From: a virus
Taxonomy: Duplodnaviria > Heunggongvirae > Uroviricota > Caudoviricetes
Strand: one strand, 5' to 3'
Virus record (IMG/VR): IMGVR_UViG_2563366998_000008
DNA length: 39,748 bases
Positions 1,983-39,481 of the stretch are shown in pieces; the first letter of the stretch is position 1; each line of letters starts with the position of its first letter. Position numbers and translations under genes: made by a program. The notes below the pieces were generated by a model that saw only the letters and a list, made by a program, of their open reading frames with translations, was not told where the DNA came from and did not search any database.

Positions 1983-2348
1983 ATGGCACTGACGAAAAAA
2001 CAACGTGCAGAATTGCGCATGAAGTTTGGCGGTCGCTGTGCTTATTGCGGCTGTGAACTTGGCGAAAAGTGGCATGCAGACCATGTAAAACCGGTCATTC
2101 GTTTTAATGGAAATATGCTTCACCAGGAACGTGACGATATATCCAACATGGTTCCGGCATGCCACCCATGCAATCTGCACAAGCATTGCAGTAGCCTGGA
2201 AGACTATCGGCGAATTATCAGTGATGGTCGTCGTGAATTCCTTGCGTCCGGGAAAGGCAAAGCGCTGGTTCGTATGGGATTGGTTGAAATGAAATCTGAC
2301 CCGGTTGTGTTCTGGTTTGAAAAATATCAAGAAGGGGCTACAGCATGA
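1983..2348 (+). CDS. HNH endonuclease
   Basis: ATG 1983 after AAGGAG; CxxC ... HADHVKP ... N ... ACHPCN pattern characteristic of the HNH nuclease fold. Confidence 0.75.
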   Translation: MALTKKQRAELRMKFGGRCAYCGCELGEKWHADHVKPVIRFNGNMLHQERDDISNMVPACHPCNLHKHCSSLEDYRRIISDGRREFLASGKGKALVRMGLVEMKSDPVVFWFEKYQEGATA

Positions 2349-3331
2349 CCACTATTACCAATAAGAAACAGTATCCCAGCGAGCAATATCTTAATGAGCT
2401 TATCACCAACATAGAGTTTGCTGCAAGGGCACCAGTTGAAGTCGTGAGCGCAATGGCAGCAGAGCTACAGAAGCGGCGCGAAGCTGATAGCGCAGAACCA
2501 GTTGCTTATATTTTCAAACATCCGGCCGGGAAATTATTCTGGGCTTTAACGGATGAAAGCAATAAAGAGCAAGCGGACGTTATTCCTGTTTATGCCGCCC
2601 CTCCAGTGCCAGTAGTATCTGAAGAAAAACCAATGCCTAACCCTCTTAAAATGTACGCGGTCGATGATGTTGCCGCTATTGCAGAGGTGAGAGGCTGGAA
2701 TGCCTACCGCGCCGCCATGCTTCAGAGTCAGGGGGAAGGCAACCCTCATGTAACCCCGGCTCGCCTGCCTGGTGGTTTCACCATTGAGGATGCGAAGGTG
2801 TTACATGAAGACCTTGTACGTAGCCACATAAGCCAGGCTTTAAGTGGCGAAAAGATGAAAAAGAAAGATCGCGATGCTGATTTGCGCTGGATTCATGGCG
2901 TAATAGTTCAGGCCGCGTGGTTTGTAAAGGCATCACTGGAGCAGAATGCACTATCGGGCAACTCTCCGGTAATTCCTGGTGAGGTGTTGTCCGCAATCCG
3001 GGAGGTTGCCAGGATTCGCGCCGATTTCGATGATTTTGACGGTGACAGGCGAGGTATCGGTGATTGTCTGGATGAGGCCGAGCAAGAGCTTATCGTTACC
3101 ATTAACAAATATGCCAGTCAGTTGGCAGTAGAGCCGGTAGTACCTGATGACGTTCTGGAACAGACAGTAGCGTCGCCAGCGCTAGGTAACCAGGTTAGCG
3201 AATTAACAATGTGGGTTAAACGACTGGTCAGTCAACTGAAAAAAGCTCAGCCGGACTGCAAATTACCGGAGAAGGCGATGGATTACCTGAAACGAAATGG
3301 ACTGATAAGCGTGGAGGATGTTTTACGATGA
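2345..3331 (+). CDS. hypothetical phage protein (328 aa)
   Basis: ATG 2345 overlapping the HNH stop (ATGA); long ORF with no recognised domain; contains the AAPPVPVVSEE module. Confidence 0.55.
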   Translation: MTTITNKKQYPSEQYLNELITNIEFAARAPVEVVSAMAAELQKRREADSAEPVAYIFKHPAGKLFWALTDESNKEQADVIPVYAAPPVPVVSEEKPMPNPLKMYAVDDVAAIAEVRGWNAYRAAMLQSQGEGNPHVTPARLPGGFTIEDAKVLHEDLVRSHISQALSGEKMKKKDRDADLRWIHGVIVQAAWFVKASLEQNALSGNSPVIPGEVLSAIREVARIRADFDDFDGDRRGIGDCLDEAEQELIVTINKYASQLAVEPVVPDDVLEQTVASPALGNQVSELTMWVKRLVSQLKKAQPDCKLPEKAMDYLKRNGLISVEDVLR

Positions 3332-3451
3332 ATATTTAGACTAAAGAGTTTGTAACGCTATGTAAGTGATTTTTTCTGGTTTAGATATTTATATGTCCGG
3401 CCAAATTGAGGTGTGTTTAAATGTTATTGCACATTGATTGTAGGGGGAATA

Positions 3452-3631
3452 ATGAAAAACGCATTGCAGTTTTTGTTTGTTGCGTTCTGGTTGTTCGCAT
3501 CATGTATGCCCATCATCTTCACAGCAAGGTATATGGAAAAAATTGATGTTTTGATATTAATGTTTGGACATATAAATGCCCTTTTTTTAGGGGTGTTCAT
3601 GGCGGTCATGTGCATTGAATACTGGCGGTAA
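3452..3631 (+). CDS. possible small hydrophobic membrane protein
   Basis: Short ORF in an AT-rich intergenic region; translation is strongly hydrophobic; no clear RBS seen. Confidence 0.2.
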   Translation: MKNALQFLFVAFWLFASCMPIIFTARYMEKIDVLILMFGHINALFLGVFMAVMCIEYWR

Positions 3632-3833
3632 ATACAGCGAACGCCATTGGTTTAGTTGGATATTTACTGTGCCGGACAAAAACGGTTTGCGGGGAAATCT
3701 TAGTTAAGTAGAATAACTGCGGGTGCTTGAGGCTATCTGTCTCAGGCATGAACACCAAAAGGCAGATAGAGAAAAGCCCCAGTTAACATTACGCGTCCTG
3801 CAAGACGCTTAACATTAATCTGAGGCCATATCT

Positions 3834-3893
3834 ATGCGACACATAGAGATTAGCCTCTTACGGACCGAAAGGTCAAGGAGAAGCAGGCTATGA
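3834..3893 (+). CDS. mok-like leader uORF translationally coupled to hok
   Basis: 19-codon ORF whose TGA (3891-3893) overlaps the hok ATG (3890-3892) as ATGA. Confidence 0.3.
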   Translation: MRHIEISLLRTERSRRSRL

Positions 3894-4045
3894 AGCAGCA
3901 AAAGGCGATGTTAATCGCCCTGATCGTCATCTGTTTAACCGTCATAGTGACGGCACTGGTAACGAGGAAAGACCTCTGCGAGGTACGAATCCGAACCGGC
4001 CAGACGGAGGTCGCTGTCTTCACAGCTTACGAACCTGAGGAGTAA
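3890..4045 (+). CDS. hokD: Hok/Gef family type I toxin (HokD/RelF-like)
   Basis: 51-aa product MKQQKAMLIALIVICLTVIVTALVTRKDLCEVRIRTGQTEVAVFTAYEPEE matches the Hok family as I recall it, likely HokD/RelF; followed by hairpin and terminator. Confidence 0.85.
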   Translation: MKQQKAMLIALIVICLTVIVTALVTRKDLCEVRIRTGQTEVAVFTAYEPEE

Positions 4046-4113
4046 GAGACCAGGCGAGGGAGAAATCCCTCGCCACCTCTGATGTGGCAGGCATCCTCAA
4101 CGCACCCGCACTT

Positions 4114-4140
4114 AACCCGCTTCGGCGGGTTTTTGTTTTT
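4114..4140 (+). terminator. rho-independent terminator after hok
   Basis: Stem AACCCGC / GCGGGTT with TTCG loop followed by a T-run. Confidence 0.5.
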
Positions 4141-4261
4141 ATTTTCAACGCATTTGAAGTTCTGGACGGTGCCGGAATAGAATCAAAAATACTTAAGTAG
4201 CGCGCAGGGATAAGAGGGATGGTCCCTTAAAGGGGAGAGCTAATTATCCGGAAGGATTCTG

Positions 4262-4513
4262 ATGATGAACATCGAAGAACTGCGTAAAATTTTTTGTGAA
4301 GATGGCCTCTATGCTGTGTGCGTTGAAAATGGAAATATTGTTAGCCATTACCGCATTGTGTGTTTGCAAAAAAATGGGGCTGCGTTAATTAATTTTGTGG
4401 ATGCCCGAGTGACGGACGGATTTATCTTGCACGACGGTGAGTTTGTCACTTCATTACAGGCATTGAAAGAGATCGGAATAAAAGCTGGCTTTTCTGCTTT
4501 TTCAGAAGAATAA
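4262..4513 (+). CDS. small phage protein (83 aa), possibly Rem-like
   Basis: ATG 4262 after GGAAGGA; size and position next to hok resemble rem of the E. coli Qin prophage (from memory, unverified). Confidence 0.55.
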   Translation: MMNIEELRKIFCEDGLYAVCVENGNIVSHYRIVCLQKNGAALINFVDARVTDGFILHDGEFVTSLQALKEIGIKAGFSAFSEE

Positions 4514-4579
4514 ACTCATCTACAATCTTGCGCGGGGCTGAACTCCCGCTGAGTAACACCGTGCCACCGGAGAAAACCG

Positions 4580-4858
4580 ATGGCACGCAACGCAAAATAT
4601 TACAATCATGATAATTCGACCGTTCTTGCCCACACGCACGAGCGGTATTCTCATGCATTTAAGTCAGACTGGTACCAGCATCCCCCATGCACTGAAGAAC
4701 AGGCCGAGTGGCTAATTCAGTGCTACCGCAGACACGGATACGAGATTAAGAAAGCCCTCAGCCTCGATTATCGTCACTGGATAATCTCCGTCAGGCTCCC
4801 TTACTCCGAACGGCCACCGCGTCCGTCCCGCACATTCCAGCAACGCATCTGGAGGTAA
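4580..4858 (+). CDS. hypothetical phage protein (92 aa)
   Basis: ATG 4580 with GGAG upstream; stop immediately precedes the next GTG start. Confidence 0.5.
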   Translation: MARNAKYYNHDNSTVLAHTHERYSHAFKSDWYQHPPCTEEQAEWLIQCYRRHGYEIKKALSLDYRHWIISVRLPYSERPPRPSRTFQQRIWR

Positions 4859-4859
4859 C

Positions 4860-5147
4860 GTGCGGGTATTACTTCGACCTGTTCTGGTACCGGAACTTGG
4901 GCTGGTGGTGCTAAAACCGGGCCGTGAATCCATGCCGGTATTCCACAATACCCGGGTACTGGTGGAGCCGGAACCGAAAAGCATGCGTAATCTGTCGTCC
5001 GGGGAGGCGATGTTAATCGCCCTGATCGTCATCTGTTTAACCGTCATAGTGACGGCACTGGTAACGAGGAAAGACCTCTGCGAGGTACGAATCCGAACCG
5101 GCCAGACGGAGGTCGCTGTCTTCACAGCTTACGAACCTGAGGAGTAA
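4860..5147 (+). CDS. chimeric ORF at the duplication junction: DUF968 N-terminus fused in frame to Hok residues 7-51
   Basis: GTG 4860 with GGAGG RBS; first ~47 aa match the start of 5962..7017, remainder is ...MLIALIVICLTVIVTALVTRKDLCEVRIRTGQTEVAVFTAYEPEE. Confidence 0.5.
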   Translation: MRVLLRPVLVPELGLVVLKPGRESMPVFHNTRVLVEPEPKSMRNLSSGEAMLIALIVICLTVIVTALVTRKDLCEVRIRTGQTEVAVFTAYEPEE

Positions 5148-5363
5148 GAGACCAGGCGAGGGAGAAATCCCTCGCCACCTCAGATGTGGCAGGCATCCTC
5201 AACGCACCCGCACTTAACCCGCTTCGGCGGGTTTTTGTTTTTATTTTCAACGCATTTGAAGTTCTGGACGGTGCCGGAATAGAATCAAAAATACTTAAGT
5301 AGCGCGCAGGGATAAGAGGGATGGTCCCTTAAAGGGGAGAGCTAATTATCCGGAAGGATTCTG

Positions 5364-5615
5364 ATGATGAACATCGAAGAACTGCGTAAAATTTTTTGTG
5401 AAGATGGCCTCTATGCTGTGTGCGTTGAAAATGGAAATATTGTTAGCCATTACCGCATTGTGTGTTTGCAAAAAAATGGGGCTGCGTTAATTAATTTTGT
5501 GGATGCTCGAGTGACGGACGGATTTATCTTGCACGACGGTGAGTTTGTCACTTCATTACAGGCATTGAAAGAGATCGGAATAAAAGCTGGCTTTTCTGCT
5601 TTTTCAGAAGAATAA
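5364..5615 (+). CDS. duplicate copy of the 83-aa Rem-like protein
   Basis: Identical translation to 4262..4513. Confidence 0.55.
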   Translation: MMNIEELRKIFCEDGLYAVCVENGNIVSHYRIVCLQKNGAALINFVDARVTDGFILHDGEFVTSLQALKEIGIKAGFSAFSEE

Positions 5616-5681
5616 ACTCATCTACAATCTTGCGCGGGGCTGAACTCCCGCTGAGTAACACCGTGCCACCGGAGAAAACCG

Positions 5682-5960
5682 ATGGCACGCAACGCAAAAT
5701 ATTACAATCATGATAATTCGACCGTTCTTGCCCACACGCACGAGCGGTATTCTCATGCATTTAAGTCAGACTGGTACCAGCATCCCCCATGCACTGAAGA
5801 ACAGGCCGAGTGGCTAATTCAGTGCTACCGCAGACACGGATACGAGATTAAGAAAGCCCTCAGCCTCGATTATCGTCACTGGATAATCTCCGTCAGGCTC
5901 CCTTACTCCGAACGGCCACCGCGTCCGTCCCGCACATTCCAGCAACGCATCTGGAGGTAA
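5682..5960 (+). CDS. duplicate copy of the 92-aa hypothetical protein
   Basis: Identical translation to 4580..4858. Confidence 0.5.
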   Translation: MARNAKYYNHDNSTVLAHTHERYSHAFKSDWYQHPPCTEEQAEWLIQCYRRHGYEIKKALSLDYRHWIISVRLPYSERPPRPSRTFQQRIWR

Positions 5961-5961
5961 C

Positions 5962-7017
5962 GTGCGGGTATTACTTCGACCTGTTCTGGTACCGGAACTC
6001 GGGCTGGTGATCGTTAAACCGGGCCGTGAATCCATGCCGGTATTCCACAATACCCGGGTACTGGTGGAGCCGGAACCGAAAAGCATGCGTAATCTGTCGT
6101 CCGGGGTCGTTCCTGCCGTTCGCCAGCCGCTGGCGGAGGATAAATCATTACTGCCATTTTTCAGCGACGAACGAGTGATTCGTGCTGCTGGTGGCGCTGG
6201 CGCATTGTCTGACTGGTTACTGCGCCATGTTAAATCCTGCCAGTGGCCACACGGCGATTATCACCACAGTGAAACCGTCATTCACCGTTATGGTACCGGC
6301 GCAATGGTGTTGTGCTGGCACTGCGACAACCAGCTGCGCGACCAGACCTCCGAATCACTCGGGCAACTTGCTCACCAAAACCTGTCTGCATGGATGATTG
6401 ACGTCATACGCCATGCAATGAATGGCTCGCAGGAACGGGAATTATCGCTGGCTGAATTATCCTGGTGGGCGGTCCGCAATCAGGTGGCGGACGCGCTACC
6501 GGAAGCGGTATTACGTCGTTCGCTGGGGTTGCGTGCGGAAAAAATCCGCTCAATGTACCGTGAAAGCGACATCGTACCGGGAGAGCAGACCGCCACCAGC
6601 ATACTGAAACAGCGCACAAAAAATCTTGCGCCGCTGCCTCACGCCCACCAGCAAAACCCGCCACAGGAAAAGACGGTGGTCAGCATTGCCGTTGATCCGG
6701 AGTCACCGGCTCAGTATCTCCAGCGCCAGAAACCACAACGGGAAGAGATGCCTGTATACACGCGCTGGGTAAAAACGCAGAAATGCATGACGTGTGGCAA
6801 TCAGGCAGATGATCCGCATCACATCATTGGTCATGGACTGGGAGGGATGGGAACAAAGGCTGACGATTTGTTTGTTATTCCGCTGTGTCGTAAATGCCAT
6901 AACGAACTACACGCCGGGGTAAAAGATTTTGAAGAAAAACACGGTAGTCAGTTGTTGTTGCTGATTCGTTTTTTAATGCACGCGAGAAATTCGGGTGTTC
7001 TGAAGTGGAAAGCATAA
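5962..7017 (+). CDS. DUF968-family phage protein (YdfU-like) with C-terminal Cys/His cluster
   Basis: GTG 5962 after GGAGG; 351 aa; C-terminal CMTCGN...HHIIGHG...CRKCHNELH. Confidence 0.65.
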   Translation: MRVLLRPVLVPELGLVIVKPGRESMPVFHNTRVLVEPEPKSMRNLSSGVVPAVRQPLAEDKSLLPFFSDERVIRAAGGAGALSDWLLRHVKSCQWPHGDYHHSETVIHRYGTGAMVLCWHCDNQLRDQTSESLGQLAHQNLSAWMIDVIRHAMNGSQERELSLAELSWWAVRNQVADALPEAVLRRSLGLRAEKIRSMYRESDIVPGEQTATSILKQRTKNLAPLPHAHQQNPPQEKTVVSIAVDPESPAQYLQRQKPQREEMPVYTRWVKTQKCMTCGNQADDPHHIIGHGLGGMGTKADDLFVIPLCRKCHNELHAGVKDFEEKHGSQLLLLIRFLMHARNSGVLKWKA

Positions 7018-7386
7018 ATGACCGAACGCATAGAATTTGTTTTGCCTTACTCGCCGACGGTGAACACTTACTGGCGACGCCGTGGCAGCACATATTTTGT
7101 ATCAAAAGCCGGGGAGCGTTATCGCCGGGCAGTGGCGCTTATTGTTCGCCAGCAGCGACTGAAATTAAGCCTGTCCGGACGGCTGGCAATAAAAATTATT
7201 GCAGAGCCACCGGATAAGCGTCGTCGTGACCTGGACAATATTCTGAAAGCACCACTGGATGCGCTGACGCACGCGGGGTTGTTAATGGACGATGAGCAGT
7301 TTGATGAAATCAATATTGTACGTGGCCAGCCAGTATCTGGTGGACGGCTGGAGATAAGAATTACAGAGGTGGGTGTGCATGAATAA
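7018..7386 (+). CDS. rusA: RusA-family Holliday junction resolvase
   Basis: 122-aa product with RRRDLDN and GGRLEI motifs resembling E. coli RusA; ATG abuts the upstream stop. Confidence 0.85.
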   Translation: MTERIEFVLPYSPTVNTYWRRRGSTYFVSKAGERYRRAVALIVRQQRLKLSLSGRLAIKIIAEPPDKRRRDLDNILKAPLDALTHAGLLMDDEQFDEINIVRGQPVSGGRLEIRITEVGVHE

Positions 7387-8068
7387 CCAGTATTTACAGT
7401 TTGTTCGTGAGCAACTCATGATTGCCACTGCAGATCTCAGTGGGTCGACAAAATGCCAGCTGGAAGCCTGGCAGGAAAATGCCCTGTTCGATACAGGGCG
7501 TTACAGACGCAAAAAAATTCGTTACCGCGATGAGGTAACCGGAAAAATGATCACGCGGGATAATCCCCCGATCCAGGGTAAACAATCACTGGCGAAAGGC
7601 TCATCAATTGCGCTGGTCAGTCCTGTTGAGTTTGCAACATCATCGTGGCGGCGTGCTGTTCTGGAACTGGAAGAACATCAGAAGGCGTGGTTGTTGTGGT
7701 GTTATGGCGGAAACATTTGCTGGGAGCATCAGATCGCGATAACGCAGTGGGGGTGGAGTGAATTTAAAACTCAGTCCGGCTCCAGAAAAATTGCAGTGAA
7801 AACGCTGGAGCGTGTGAAGAAGTTGATCTGGCTGGCGGCACAGGATGTCAGAGGATGGGTTACCGGGTGTGAGGTCTACCAGAGACAGGAGCTTGCCAGA
7901 CTGTGTGGAGTTAAGCCTGATAACTGGAGCCATAATTATGCGAACTACTGGCGTGAGATGTGCGATATTTTTAAGCGCCTCGATAGAGAATCCTTGATTT
8001 GCTCCGTGAAAATAAGAGCGCAACAAAAAGCGACCTTTTCACGACGAGATATTGCAAAAGTCAATTAA
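7379..8068 (+). CDS. Q: late-gene antiterminator Q-like protein
   Basis: Position directly after rusA and before a promoter/terminator pair and the lysis genes; ATG 7379 with GAGGTGGG RBS; family assignment by context. Confidence 0.6.
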   Translation: MNNQYLQFVREQLMIATADLSGSTKCQLEAWQENALFDTGRYRRKKIRYRDEVTGKMITRDNPPIQGKQSLAKGSSIALVSPVEFATSSWRRAVLELEEHQKAWLLWCYGGNICWEHQIAITQWGWSEFKTQSGSRKIAVKTLERVKKLIWLAAQDVRGWVTGCEVYQRQELARLCGVKPDNWSHNYANYWREMCDIFKRLDRESLICSVKIRAQQKATFSRRDIAKVN

Positions 8069-8847: not shown

Positions 8848-9183
8848 TTATGGACTTTGTTGTTTTAGCCCATAAGGACATATTTGCAGAGTGCAACGGT
8901 TATTAAAGCATTCATTCAATACGTTATCTGTATTTGTAGGGCATTCCTGGCTGTTTTTGATTAAATTCCAGAATGTTTTATTGAATGGTACTACGTTGTA
9001 AATGGTTACAGGTAGCACTTTGTTATTGAGCATGATACCTGTGTGAGTCAGTGTAAATATACTTTCAGGAGGTAAGAAAGCATCCGATTGATACCAGATT
9101 ATTAATTTTATTTTACTCCATATGACTGAAAAAGATATTCCGCATGATGGCTGGATAACTGTATCAATCACAATCCACTTCAT
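8848..9183 (-). CDS. hypothetical protein (111 aa) in an AT-rich island, opposite strand to the late operon
   Basis: Minus-strand ORF with AAGGA about 6 nt upstream of ATG; AT-rich flanks; no recognised domain. Confidence 0.45.
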
Positions 9184-38756: not shown

Positions 38757-39413
38757 CTATTTTTTCCCTGAAGCGGAAAACATTACTACAGTACCTTGAA
38801 CCTTGGTTTTAACATTCTCGAAATGCTCTGAGAGTATATGTGTTAAGCCTTCTTCGGAATCTTTTGTGTTTGAAAAGATGCCTTTCTGATTGTAAATGCG
38901 CATCAGTTTTTGACCGAAGCTATTGTGCACAACTCCATCGCCAAGAATTGTGGCTCCGTATAGAGTTCCATCGTCAGTTAAGGCCTGCGCCGCATTGCGT
39001 ATTACACAGCTTTTTGTAGATATATTTCCAGGCAGGCAGTGAAGAAGGTAAAACATGGAAATGGAATCAAATTGACCATGTAACGCCGCGGGATAAGGTT
39101 CAAAAACATCATGGCTAATTTTATGTTTAATTTTTGATTCCCCAGCCCTTGTAGATGCCGCGTTCAGGCTAGCTTCGTTCAAATCCATTAAAGATATCAG
39201 ACTACTCTCAGGTACGTGAGTAAGGTAAAACCCAGTTCCAACACCAATATCCAGATGGTTGTTACCTACATGTTCCAGAAAGTGTGGAAGAAGGTGTTCC
39301 TTTGTAGGACATCCCCATGCAAGCCGATTTGATACTCCCAAAACCCACCAGTCATAAAGCTTTAGGGTAAGTGGTGTGTAAATTTTAGCCCCATCATCTG
39401 TGTTTTTTTTCAT
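38757..39413 (-). CDS. class I SAM-dependent methyltransferase
   Basis: Minus-strand ORF; HLDIGVGTGFY glycine-rich SAM-binding motif and downstream acidic motif LMDLNE; AT-rich relative to neighbours; likely start at the second ATG (39411-39413) with GGTGA upstream. Confidence 0.7.
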   Translation of the reverse strand: MKKNTDDGAKIYTPLTLKLYDWWVLGVSNRLAWGCPTKEHLLPHFLEHVGNNHLDIGVGTGFYLTHVPESSLISLMDLNEASLNAASTRAGESKIKHKISHDVFEPYPAALHGQFDSISMFYLLHCLPGNISTKSCVIRNAAQALTDDGTLYGATILGDGVVHNSFGQKLMRIYNQKGIFSNTKDSEEGLTHILSEHFENVKTKVQGTVVMFSASGKK

Positions 39414-39481
39414 TGATTTCACCATGTTATAGTTTTATTTGTGAATTAAATCAATTATGGCGATGAATTACAAGGGGTTAA

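What the first reader, a model, noticed from the sequence alone, without database searches (positions are those of the whole stretch)
3903..6106. 1102-bp tandem duplication creating a chimeric DUF968'-'Hok ORF
Seen in sequence: 3903..5004 and 5005..6106 are near-identical tandem copies; the 83-aa and 92-aa ORFs recur exactly. The unit runs from hok codon 6 to about codon 47 of the DUF968 gene, so the inter-copy junction makes an ORF (4860..5147) with the DUF968 GTG start and GGAGG RBS fused in frame to Hok residues 7-51 (transmembrane and periplasmic toxic region). This second Hok body lacks the mok-like leader of the intact copy and may escape normal hok translational control. Mismatches between copies cluster in ~20 bp near the 3' end (4898-4912 vs 6000-6014), hinting at gene conversion or recombination between diverged prophages rather than a simple recent duplication.
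Basis: partly seen in the sequence, partly recalled or inferred. Interest (0 to 1): 0.65.

Follow-up and report, generated by a model that had tools for sequence, protein, structure and literature searches.

The report
Private tandem duplication fusing DUF968 to Hok
One E. coli draft genome (strain KTE83) carries a recent 1.1-kb head-to-tail duplication inside a lambda-like prophage that, by chance, joins the start of a phage gene in frame to the body of the Hok membrane toxin; it is an ordinary kind of mutation, seen in no other genome, with untested consequences.

Summary
Window 3903-5004 and 5005-6106 are direct tandem copies, 1095/1102 identical, joined bluntly with no microhomology. The junction creates a 95-aa ORF (4860-5147). 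It consists of DUF968 residues 1-48, a junction Glu, and Hok residues 6-51, and it keeps the complete Pfam HOK_GEF domain. The hok promoter, leader, mok-like uORF and Sok region (3721-3892) lie outside the unit, so the second Hok body has none of the RNA-level control.

The structure is private. The window is scaffold KB733413.1 of E. coli KTE83. The junction is absent from 5,426 complete E. coli genomes, from GTDB representatives, from IMG/VR and from metagenome contigs. The fusion protein is a singleton among 5.8 billion protein clusters. At least 131 complete genomes carry the same prophage segment at ≥99% identity, all those inspected in single copy, and copy 1 is 100% identical to one of them (strain 7/2).

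All seven differences sit in copy 2. Five of them form a short patch identical to DUF968 alleles of other lambdoid prophages, which points to short-tract gene conversion or an assembler path switch.

Best reading: a recent illegitimate tandem duplication with a by-product chimeric ORF. The ORF is probably silent in the lysogen and transcribed only on induction. Expression, toxicity and read support remain untested. Interest is low.

The parts
3721..3892 (+). hok mRNA leader (tac, ucb, mok translation-initiation region, Sok target). Present once only, outside the duplicated unit.
   Evidence: Rfam RF01794 full-length match, 106.7 bits, E 1.5e-24, ending at the hok ATG; no second match.
3834..3893 (+). 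mok-like upstream ORF (19 codons, SD GAGG at 3822-3825). Its TGA overlaps the hok ATG (ATGA), a translational-coupling arrangement.
   Evidence: Read directly from the sequence. Role inferred from the hok/mok model (PMC9841398).
3775..3876 (-). Putative Sok antisense gene with its promoter (-35 TTGACC at 3876-3871, -10 TAATCT at 3852-3847). It lies entirely left of the duplication boundary.
   Evidence: Read by eye on the minus strand. Inference only: the consensus scan did not flag it.
3890..4045 (+). Intact hok gene (HokD/HokW type, 51 aa).
   Evidence: Pfam HOK_GEF 82.9 bits, residues 6-47. Annotated hokD in the 100%-identical reference locus.
4095..4140 (+). 3' fold-back element (fbi-like, 4095-4107, pairs with the 5' end 3721-3732) and the intrinsic terminator of hok mRNA (4114-4140).
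   Evidence: MFE fold of 3721-4140, z = -8.4, pair table; terminator scan.
3903..5004 (+). Duplication copy 1 ('hok body, terminator, rem, orf92, DUF968 codons 1-48). 100% identical to the single-copy locus of E. coli 7/2.
5005..6106 (+). Duplication copy 2. It carries all 7 differences (5182, 5507, 6000, 6010, 6012, 6013, 6015).
4262..4513 (+). rem (83 aa), copy 1; second copy at 5364-5615 with identical protein.
   Evidence: annotated 'protein Rem'; PF27490.
4580..4858 (+). orf92 (hypothetical, 92 aa), copy 1; second copy at 5682-5960. Its TAA stop lies 1 nt before the GTG of the next ORF.
4860..5147 (+). Chimeric ORF: DUF968 aa 1-48 + Glu + Hok aa 6-51 (95 aa). The junction lies between 5004 and 5005.
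   Evidence: Pfam HOK_GEF 1-42/42 at residues 50-91, 80.7 bits; called as a gene, 'protein hokD [E. coli KTE83]'.
5197..5242 (+). Orphan fbi-like element and second copy of the hok terminator, downstream of the chimeric ORF.
   Evidence: copy-1 coordinates + 1102.
5962..7017 (+). Intact DUF968 (YdfU-like) gene, 351 aa. It has short patches (6000-6015 and 6655-6705) that match alleles of other prophages.
   Evidence: Pfam DUF968 at residues 160-343; patches.
7018..8068 (+). rusA and antiterminator Q, the downstream end of the early operon that contains the duplication.

Best explanation
This is a recent, strain-private tandem segmental duplication produced by illegitimate (homology-free) joining. 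It lies in the hok-rem-orf92-DUF968-rusA-Q stretch of the early-right operon of a lambda-like prophage of E. coli KTE83.

Shown:
- There are two head-to-tail 1102-bp copies.
- The join happens to be in frame and yields DUF968(1-48)-Glu-Hok(6-51), with the whole conserved Hok domain and transmembrane segment.
- The ORF inherits the DUF968 ribosome-binding site and GTG, abutting the orf92 stop codon.
- It has none of the hok promoter, tac/ucb, mok or Sok-target elements.
- rem and orf92 are doubled, and a second intrinsic terminator now lies upstream of Q.

Inferred:
- The chimeric ORF has no promoter of its own and sits behind the hok terminator, so it is essentially silent in the lysogen. That is why the strain is viable.
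- It would be transcribed with the antiterminated early transcript after induction.
- At that stage an N-terminally extended Hok could insert in the inner membrane and add to host killing, or advance it.
- It is most likely a neutral or slightly deleterious by-product, not a selected device.
- The five clustered differences in copy 2 are a short-tract conversion from a DUF968 allele of another lambdoid prophage, laid on top of the duplication.
For: Structure and frame.

Private status:
- A junction 50-mer has no hit in 5,426 complete E. coli genomes.
- A junction 28-mer is absent from GTDB representatives, IMG/VR and metagenome contigs.
- The fusion protein is found on one contig only.
- It is a singleton among 5.8 billion clusters, and the next hits cover at most 73% of it.

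Recency:
- At least 131 complete genomes match this stretch at 99% identity or more (137 span at least 80% of the 5.8-kb query at 99.8%), and every listed hit is single copy.
- Copy 1 is 1102/1102 identical to strain 7/2.

Conversion patch:
- All 5 clustered variants equal the allele in L003, L006, L007 and L008.
- Copy 2 keeps the reference alleles immediately on either side.
- A second patch, 6655-6705, is 100% identical to alleles in at least 791 records.

Loss of RNA control.

Complete Hok domain. Hydrophobic core unchanged.

Terminators and absence of a convincing promoter.

Plausibility of activity:
- mCherry fused to the N-terminus of HokB stays membrane-localised and functional (PMC6094483).
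- 70-aa in-frame Mok-Hok ORFs and a RelE(1-44)-Hok ORF are called in other assemblies.
- Prophage hokW acts at induction and aids lysis (PMC8621323).
Against: - The source is a single draft scaffold. From my own knowledge, not checked here, the KTE series are Illumina-only assemblies. I could not examine reads, so copy number and even the junction rest on one assembly.
- Two isolated differences (5182, 5507) were not found in the paralogues I sampled. They are more than expected from point mutation in a very young duplication.
- Weak promoter-like sites (9/12) lie after each hok terminator (4154-4183, 5256-5285), so some expression in the lysogen cannot be excluded.
- The fusion loses Lys2 and Lys5 of Hok and places Glu next to the helix. 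Net charge of the 15 residues before the helix is -1, against +2 after it. This could disturb the N-in/C-out topology needed for toxicity.
Confidence: 0.62

Rival explanations
1. Assembly artefact or heterogeneous culture. The true genome has one copy. The second copy comes from chimeric reads, from a sub-population carrying a transient duplication, or from mis-threading of reads from a paralogous prophage elsewhere in the genome. The 'conversion patch' would then be an assembler path switch between paralogues.
For: - The structure exists in one draft scaffold only.
- All listed complete genomes with this prophage are single copy.
- E. coli genomes usually hold several DUF968 and hok paralogues: median 2 and up to 13 places per genome.
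- The variant patches in copy 2 are exactly paralogue alleles flanked by identical sequence. That is the situation in which graph assemblers switch paths.
Against: - A blunt junction with no shared bases cannot arise from k-mer overlap alone. Some DNA molecules with this join must have been sequenced.
- There are no Ns or gaps near it.
- The two copies differ at 7 sites that the assembler placed consistently. All variants fall in the copy linked to the right flank.
Confidence: 0.2
2. Unequal illegitimate recombination between two different, diverged prophage or phage genomes. Parent A would supply everything left of 5004 and parent B everything right of 5005, instead of an in-situ duplication followed by conversion.
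For: - All seven differences, and the further 6655-6705 patch, lie to the right of the junction. Copy 1 equals the common reference type.
- The exact 351-aa DUF968 protein of the window also occurs in three other assemblies.
Against: - Those three assemblies differ from copy 2 at the DNA level directly beside the patch and have different upstream genes.
- No complete genome carries the copy-2 haplotype; the best match is 99.2% and is the reference type.
- Copy 2 returns to the reference allele within about 20-65 bp of the patch on either side. This fits short-tract conversion, not a crossover.
- Differences from the reference are about as frequent to the left (2 in 5 kb) as to the right of the junction (about 5 events in 6 kb).
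Confidence: 0.1
3. The duplication is maintained by selection. Either the selected feature is a double dose of rem and/or orf92, or the Sok-independent Hok fusion serves the prophage or the host (faster lysis, abortive infection, prophage retention).
For: - Tandem duplications are unstable unless selected (established knowledge: Roth-lab work on duplication and amplification).
- The copies have had time to acquire differences.
- Prophage hokW increases phage release (PMC8621323).
- N-terminally tagged HokB is functional (PMC6094483).
Against: - It is found in one strain only, among thousands carrying related prophages.
- The in-frame outcome has a one-in-three chance.
- There is no dedicated promoter.
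- The differences between the copies are explained by conversion or by assembly, not by age.
Confidence: 0.08

Closest known systems
[quoted passage not shown]
   Same: Copy 1 is a canonical locus. It has a leader matching Rfam RF01794, a mok-like uORF coupled to hok, a 5'-3' fold-back and terminator, and a 51-aa Hok with the complete HOK_GEF domain. It lies in the same hokD-rem-DUF968-Q gene order that is annotated in other E. coli.
   Different: The second Hok body has no promoter, leader, mok or Sok target. It is read as the C-terminal half of a foreign ORF.
hokD (relF) of E. coli K-12, a hok body without its own leader lying behind relBE (my recollection of Pedersen and Gerdes 1999; not checked here)
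   Same: A Hok coding region separated from the mok/sok control elements, placed downstream of another gene, and tolerated by the host.
   Different: In K-12 the Hok ORF keeps its own start codon. Here it is fused in frame to 48 foreign residues. A RelE(1-44)-Hok ORF called in another assembly (P0074) is a closer analogue, but I did not follow it up.
Spontaneous tandem segmental duplications in bacterial chromosomes that create chimeric genes at the novel joint
   Same: Head-to-tail copies, one novel junction, the intact genes at both ends preserved, and a fusion ORF at the joint.
   Different: Most described duplications form between repeats (IS, rrn, REP) or at microhomology. This one is blunt with zero shared bases, is only 1.1 kb long, and lies inside a prophage.
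Engineered N-terminal fusions to Hok-family toxins (mCherry-HokB)
   Same: A cytoplasmic N-terminal extension in front of the Hok transmembrane helix. Those constructs remain membrane-localised and active (PMC6094483).
   Different: The engineered fusions keep the positively charged Hok N-terminus. The natural fusion here deletes residues 1-5 and puts Glu next to the helix.

Membership tests
Hok/Gef toxin family (protein) | Match to Pfam HOK_GEF (PF01848) above the gathering score | tested here: met
   Fusion ORF: 80.7 bits (cut-off 22), profile 1-42/42 at residues 50-91. Intact Hok: 82.9 bits.
Hok/Gef toxin family (protein) | Single hydrophobic transmembrane segment followed by a charged C-terminal (periplasmic) tail | tested here: met
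   The same 19-residue peak (KD 3.07, AMLIALIVICLTVIVTALV) appears in both proteins, and the C-terminal tail is identical.
Hok/Gef toxin family (protein) | Short, positively charged N-terminus that anchors the N-in topology | tested here: not met
   The fusion lacks MKQQK. The 15 residues before the helix have net charge -1, and a 49-residue extension replaces the 5-residue N-terminus. This feature is met by the intact copy.
Hok/Gef toxin family (protein) | Kills or depolarises cells when expressed | not testable with these tools
   Requires inducible expression of 4860-5147.
hok/sok type I TA locus (regulatory architecture) | hok mRNA leader with Sok target and cis-encoded Sok antisense RNA | tested here: not met
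   This row is for the chimeric ORF. Rfam RF01794 hits once only, at 3721-3892, and no identity longer than 7 nt links the leader to 4780-5030. The feature is met by copy 1.
hok/sok type I TA locus (regulatory architecture) | mok reading frame whose translation is coupled to hok | tested here: not met
   This row is for the chimeric ORF, where Hok codons are read from the DUF968 GTG and there is no mok. Copy 1 has a 19-codon uORF ending in ATGA at the hok start.
hok/sok type I TA locus (regulatory architecture) | 5' tac / 3' fbi fold-back that closes the full-length mRNA | tested here: inconclusive
   In copy 1, 3721-3732 is predicted to pair with 4095-4107 (z -8.4). Copy 2 keeps only the 3' partner (5197-5209). 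These are predictions only.
Tandem segmental duplication | Two adjacent, same-orientation copies with one novel junction and unchanged outer flanks | tested here: met
   The flanks are collinear with the single-copy strain 7/2, and removing one unit restores the reference order.
Tandem segmental duplication | Junction supported by sequencing reads and about 2x read depth | not testable with these tools
   No read data are available. Only one draft assembly contains it.

The most novel reading that the evidence does not exclude
The chimeric ORF is real, translated and membrane-active. A Hok toxin has then been cut loose from its antisense-RNA and mRNA-folding control and rewired to the prophage early operon, so it fires only on induction. 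The junction-created GGGGAGG might additionally allow an internal start at Hok Met7. That would be a natural example of a type I toxin being converted into an ordinary phage-timed killing or lysis-accessory protein by a single duplication event.
Probability: 0.12. Interest if true: 0.4.

Novelty: new member of a known kind. Interest (0 to 1): 0.2.

Why it matters
As it stands, it matters little. It is a one-strain structural variant of a well-known prophage region, and nobody would be surprised that duplications occasionally make in-frame chimeras.

It has some value as a ready-made natural construct. It could be used to ask whether a Hok body tolerates replacement of its charged N-terminus by a 48-residue foreign segment. 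It could also be used to ask what happens when Hok is freed from Sok, mok and fold-back control but left under prophage transcriptional control.

It is also a caution for annotation. The ORF is deposited as 'protein hokD' and would be counted as an extra hok locus in surveys.

Tried and rejected
- The first junction search, with 301 bp, was uninformative. The tool joins the two halves from single-copy genomes into one 'place'. I replaced it with a 50-mer centred on the junction and with exact 28-mer scans.
- I looked for a single-copy genome with the copy-2 haplotype. None exists among complete genomes. Three assemblies share the DUF968 protein but not the DNA haplotype or the upstream genes. 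This argues against a two-parent origin.
- The weak Rfam isrK and rsmX matches at 4049-4135 and 5151-5237 are well below gathering score. They merely reflect the hok 3' hairpin plus terminator.
- The promoter scan gives no more sites than shuffled sequence: 7 against 4.5±1.8. I therefore do not claim a promoter for the fusion.
- Loci fetched from the annotated collections and from other assemblies were not available to the Python sandbox, so I made those comparisons with DNA alignment.
- I did not run structure prediction. A model of a 95-aa chimera would not decide expression or toxicity.
Full report
**1. The observation**

A self-comparison at an offset of 1102 bases shows that identity begins exactly at 3903/5005 and ends exactly at 5004/6106. 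The sequence on either side of those limits is unrelated. The two copies differ at seven positions: 4080, 4405, 4898, 4908, 4910, 4911 and 4913. That is 1095/1102 identical. The repeat finder reports the same 1102 spacing. TRF is blind to it because of its period limit.

The junction is ...GTCCGGGG|AGGCGATG.... The bases flanking the two breakpoints share nothing, so the join is blunt and homology-free.

The 83-aa and 92-aa ORFs occur twice with identical products, and a 95-aa GTG-initiated ORF runs across the junction at 4860-5147.

The details need small corrections. The unit runs from the second base of hok codon 5 to the first base of DUF968 codon 49. The product is therefore DUF968 1-48, then Glu (G|AG, in place of Hok Lys5), then Hok 6-51.

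**2. What the region is**

The closest complete genomes annotate the single-copy version as hokD, rem, a 92-aa hypothetical protein, a DUF968 protein, RusA and antiterminator Q. All are on one strand.

The rest of the window is a lambda-like late region. It contains holin, lysozyme, Rz, gpA terminase, lambda-type portal, capsid protein E, tape measure, J, Lom, tail fibre and tail fibre assembly protein. The duplication therefore lies in the early-right operon of a lambdoid prophage, upstream of Q.

The window is positions 50 onward of scaffold KB733413.1 of assembly GCA_000351785.1. A source names the fusion 'protein hokD [Escherichia coli KTE83]'.

**3. Anatomy of the hok locus and what was duplicated**

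- The Rfam sok/hok-leader model matches once, full length, at 3721-3892. It scores 106.7 bits and ends at the hok ATG.
- Within the leader there is a 19-codon mok-like uORF (3834-3893). It is preceded by GAGG, and its TGA overlaps the hok ATG.
- On the opposite strand, a TTGACC-18-TAATCT promoter-like pair could drive Sok. I read this by eye only.
- Folding 3721-4140 pairs the 5' end (3721-3732) with 4095-4107, the classic tac/fbi closure, with z = -8.4.
- An intrinsic terminator follows at 4114-4140.

All 5' control elements lie left of 3903. The duplicated unit carries only the Hok body, the 3' fold-back partner and the terminator.

No stretch longer than 7 nt is shared between the leader and the region around the start of the fusion. 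Sok therefore has no target there.

The fusion uses the DUF968 initiation region (GGAGG, 4 nt, GTG). Its start codon lies one base after the orf92 stop codon.

The complete Pfam HOK_GEF profile (1-42 of 42) is retained, at 80.7 bits against 82.9 for the intact gene. The 48 donated residues lie outside the DUF968 Pfam domain, which starts at residue 160.

**4. How widespread it is**

- A 50-mer centred on the junction has no match in 5,426 complete E. coli genomes.
- An exact 28-mer is absent from GTDB species representatives, from IMG/VR and from the metagenome contigs.
- An exact-sequence look-up finds the fusion protein on one contig only.
- In the 5.8-billion-cluster protein search the fusion is a singleton. 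Every other hit covers at most 73% of it, and is either a Hok-family protein or a DUF968 N-terminal fragment.
- By contrast, at least 131 complete genomes match this stretch at ≥99% identity. Of these, 137 span at least 80% of the 5.8-kb query at 99.8%, and every listed hit spans about 1.1 kb less than the query, i.e. is single copy.

**5. Age and origin**

Copy 1 is 1102/1102 identical to the single-copy locus of strain 7/2. All seven differences are in copy 2.

Downstream in DUF968 there is another cluster at 6655-6705: a 3-bp deletion plus three substitutions.

Both clusters are alleles that exist in DUF968 genes of other lambdoid prophages.
- The 6000-6015 patch matches L003, L006, L007 and L008 at all five positions.
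- Copy 2 nevertheless keeps the reference bases at the next polymorphic sites on either side. This limits the tract to roughly 16-80 bp.
- The 6655-6705 patch is 100% identical to alleles in at least 791 records.

The two isolated substitutions (5182 in the hok 3' UTR, and 5507, which is synonymous in rem) were not seen in the paralogues I sampled.

No complete genome has the copy-2 haplotype. The three other assemblies that encode the identical DUF968 protein differ in DNA and in upstream gene content.

Together this favours a recent in-situ duplication followed by short-tract conversion from a paralogue. Alternatively, since this is a draft assembly, an assembler switch between paralogous paths could explain the patches. 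A join between two diverged prophages is less likely.

**6. Likely consequences**

Shown:
- The second Hok body is outside all known RNA-level controls.
- It is embedded in an ORF with good initiation signals.

Inferred:
- It lies behind the hok terminator and has no convincing promoter. Promoter-like sites are no more frequent than in shuffled sequence. It should therefore be silent while the prophage is repressed, which would explain the viability of the strain.
- It would be transcribed with the antiterminated early message after induction.

Whether the product is toxic is open.
- For toxicity: mCherry-HokB, a much larger N-terminal fusion, remains membrane-localised and functional (PMC6094483). 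In-frame 70-aa Mok-Hok ORFs and a RelE(1-44)-Hok ORF are called in other assemblies.
- Against toxicity: the conserved positive N-terminus is lost, and Glu now abuts the helix. The net charge is -1 before the helix and +2 after it. This could upset the N-in/C-out orientation on which activity depends; HokC is C-terminus-out (PMC8509063).

In Sp5, hokW-sokW assists lysis and doubles phage release after mitomycin C (PMC8621323). An extra Hok made at induction would therefore act in a context where Hok already acts.

Other effects of the duplication are a double dose of rem and orf92, and a second terminator upstream of Q.

**7. Comparison with what is known, and verdict**

Copy 1 is an ordinary hokD/hokW-type locus. 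The duplication is an ordinary class of mutation. A hok body detached from its leader has a precedent in K-12 hokD behind relBE (my recollection, not checked here).

The chimeric ORF meets the protein-level definition of the Hok family except for the charged N-terminus. It fails every regulatory criterion of a hok/sok locus.

I rate it as a new member of a known kind. It is real in the deposited sequence, private to one draft genome, and probably a neutral by-product. Its authenticity needs read-level confirmation, and its effect is untested.

Interest: 0.2.

Noticed in passing
window 5001-5012: The junction itself creates GGGGAGG two bases upstream of the ATG of Hok Met7 (5010). The native copy has AAAAGG at that place. 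An internal start giving a 45-aa Hok(7-51) is conceivable, although the spacer to GGAGG is too short to be efficient.
   Followed up: partly
window 4028-4031 and 5130-5133: The Tyr47 codon of both Hok bodies is TAC followed by G (UACG). This is the context reported for TadA A-to-I editing, which recodes Tyr to Cys in hok mRNAs (introduction of bioRxiv 10.1101/2025.08.07.668861). If editing controls toxicity here, it would apply to the fusion as well.
   Followed up: no
window 6655-6705: A second mosaic patch lies in DUF968, outside the duplication. It is a 3-bp deletion plus three substitutions relative to the closest genomes, and it is 100% identical to DUF968 alleles of many other prophages.
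   Followed up: yes
protein P0074 (from; sequence): A 99-aa ORF in another NCBI assembly is RelE residues 1-44 joined in frame to the end of the hok leader and the whole Hok. It is an independent chimeric X'-Hok ORF, presumably from a deletion in a relBE-hokD locus.
   Followed up: no
window 3834-3893, compared with proteins P0002 and P0027: Many relatives have a 70-aa Mok that is in frame with Hok and contains all of it. In this window the mok-like ORF is in another frame, is 19 codons long, and stops at the hok ATG (ATGA).
   Followed up: partly
window 3413-3631: A small, very hydrophobic ORF (72 aa from GTG; called as 59 aa in the assembly) lies just upstream of the hok promoter region. It has no Pfam match and is not annotated in the RefSeq reference locus.
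   Followed up: no
window 8848-9183 (- strand): An IraM/PmrD-family anti-adaptor gene sits on the opposite strand between Q and the lysis cassette, a moron-like insertion.
   Followed up: no
window 38757-39425 (- strand): A 222-aa SAM-dependent methyltransferase-like ORF lies on the opposite strand directly after the tail fibre assembly gene, near the end of the prophage late region.
   Followed up: no
window 2345-3331: A 328-aa ORF with no Pfam match follows the HNH endonuclease gene. RefSeq annotates only its C-terminal 204 codons in the reference genome.
   Followed up: no
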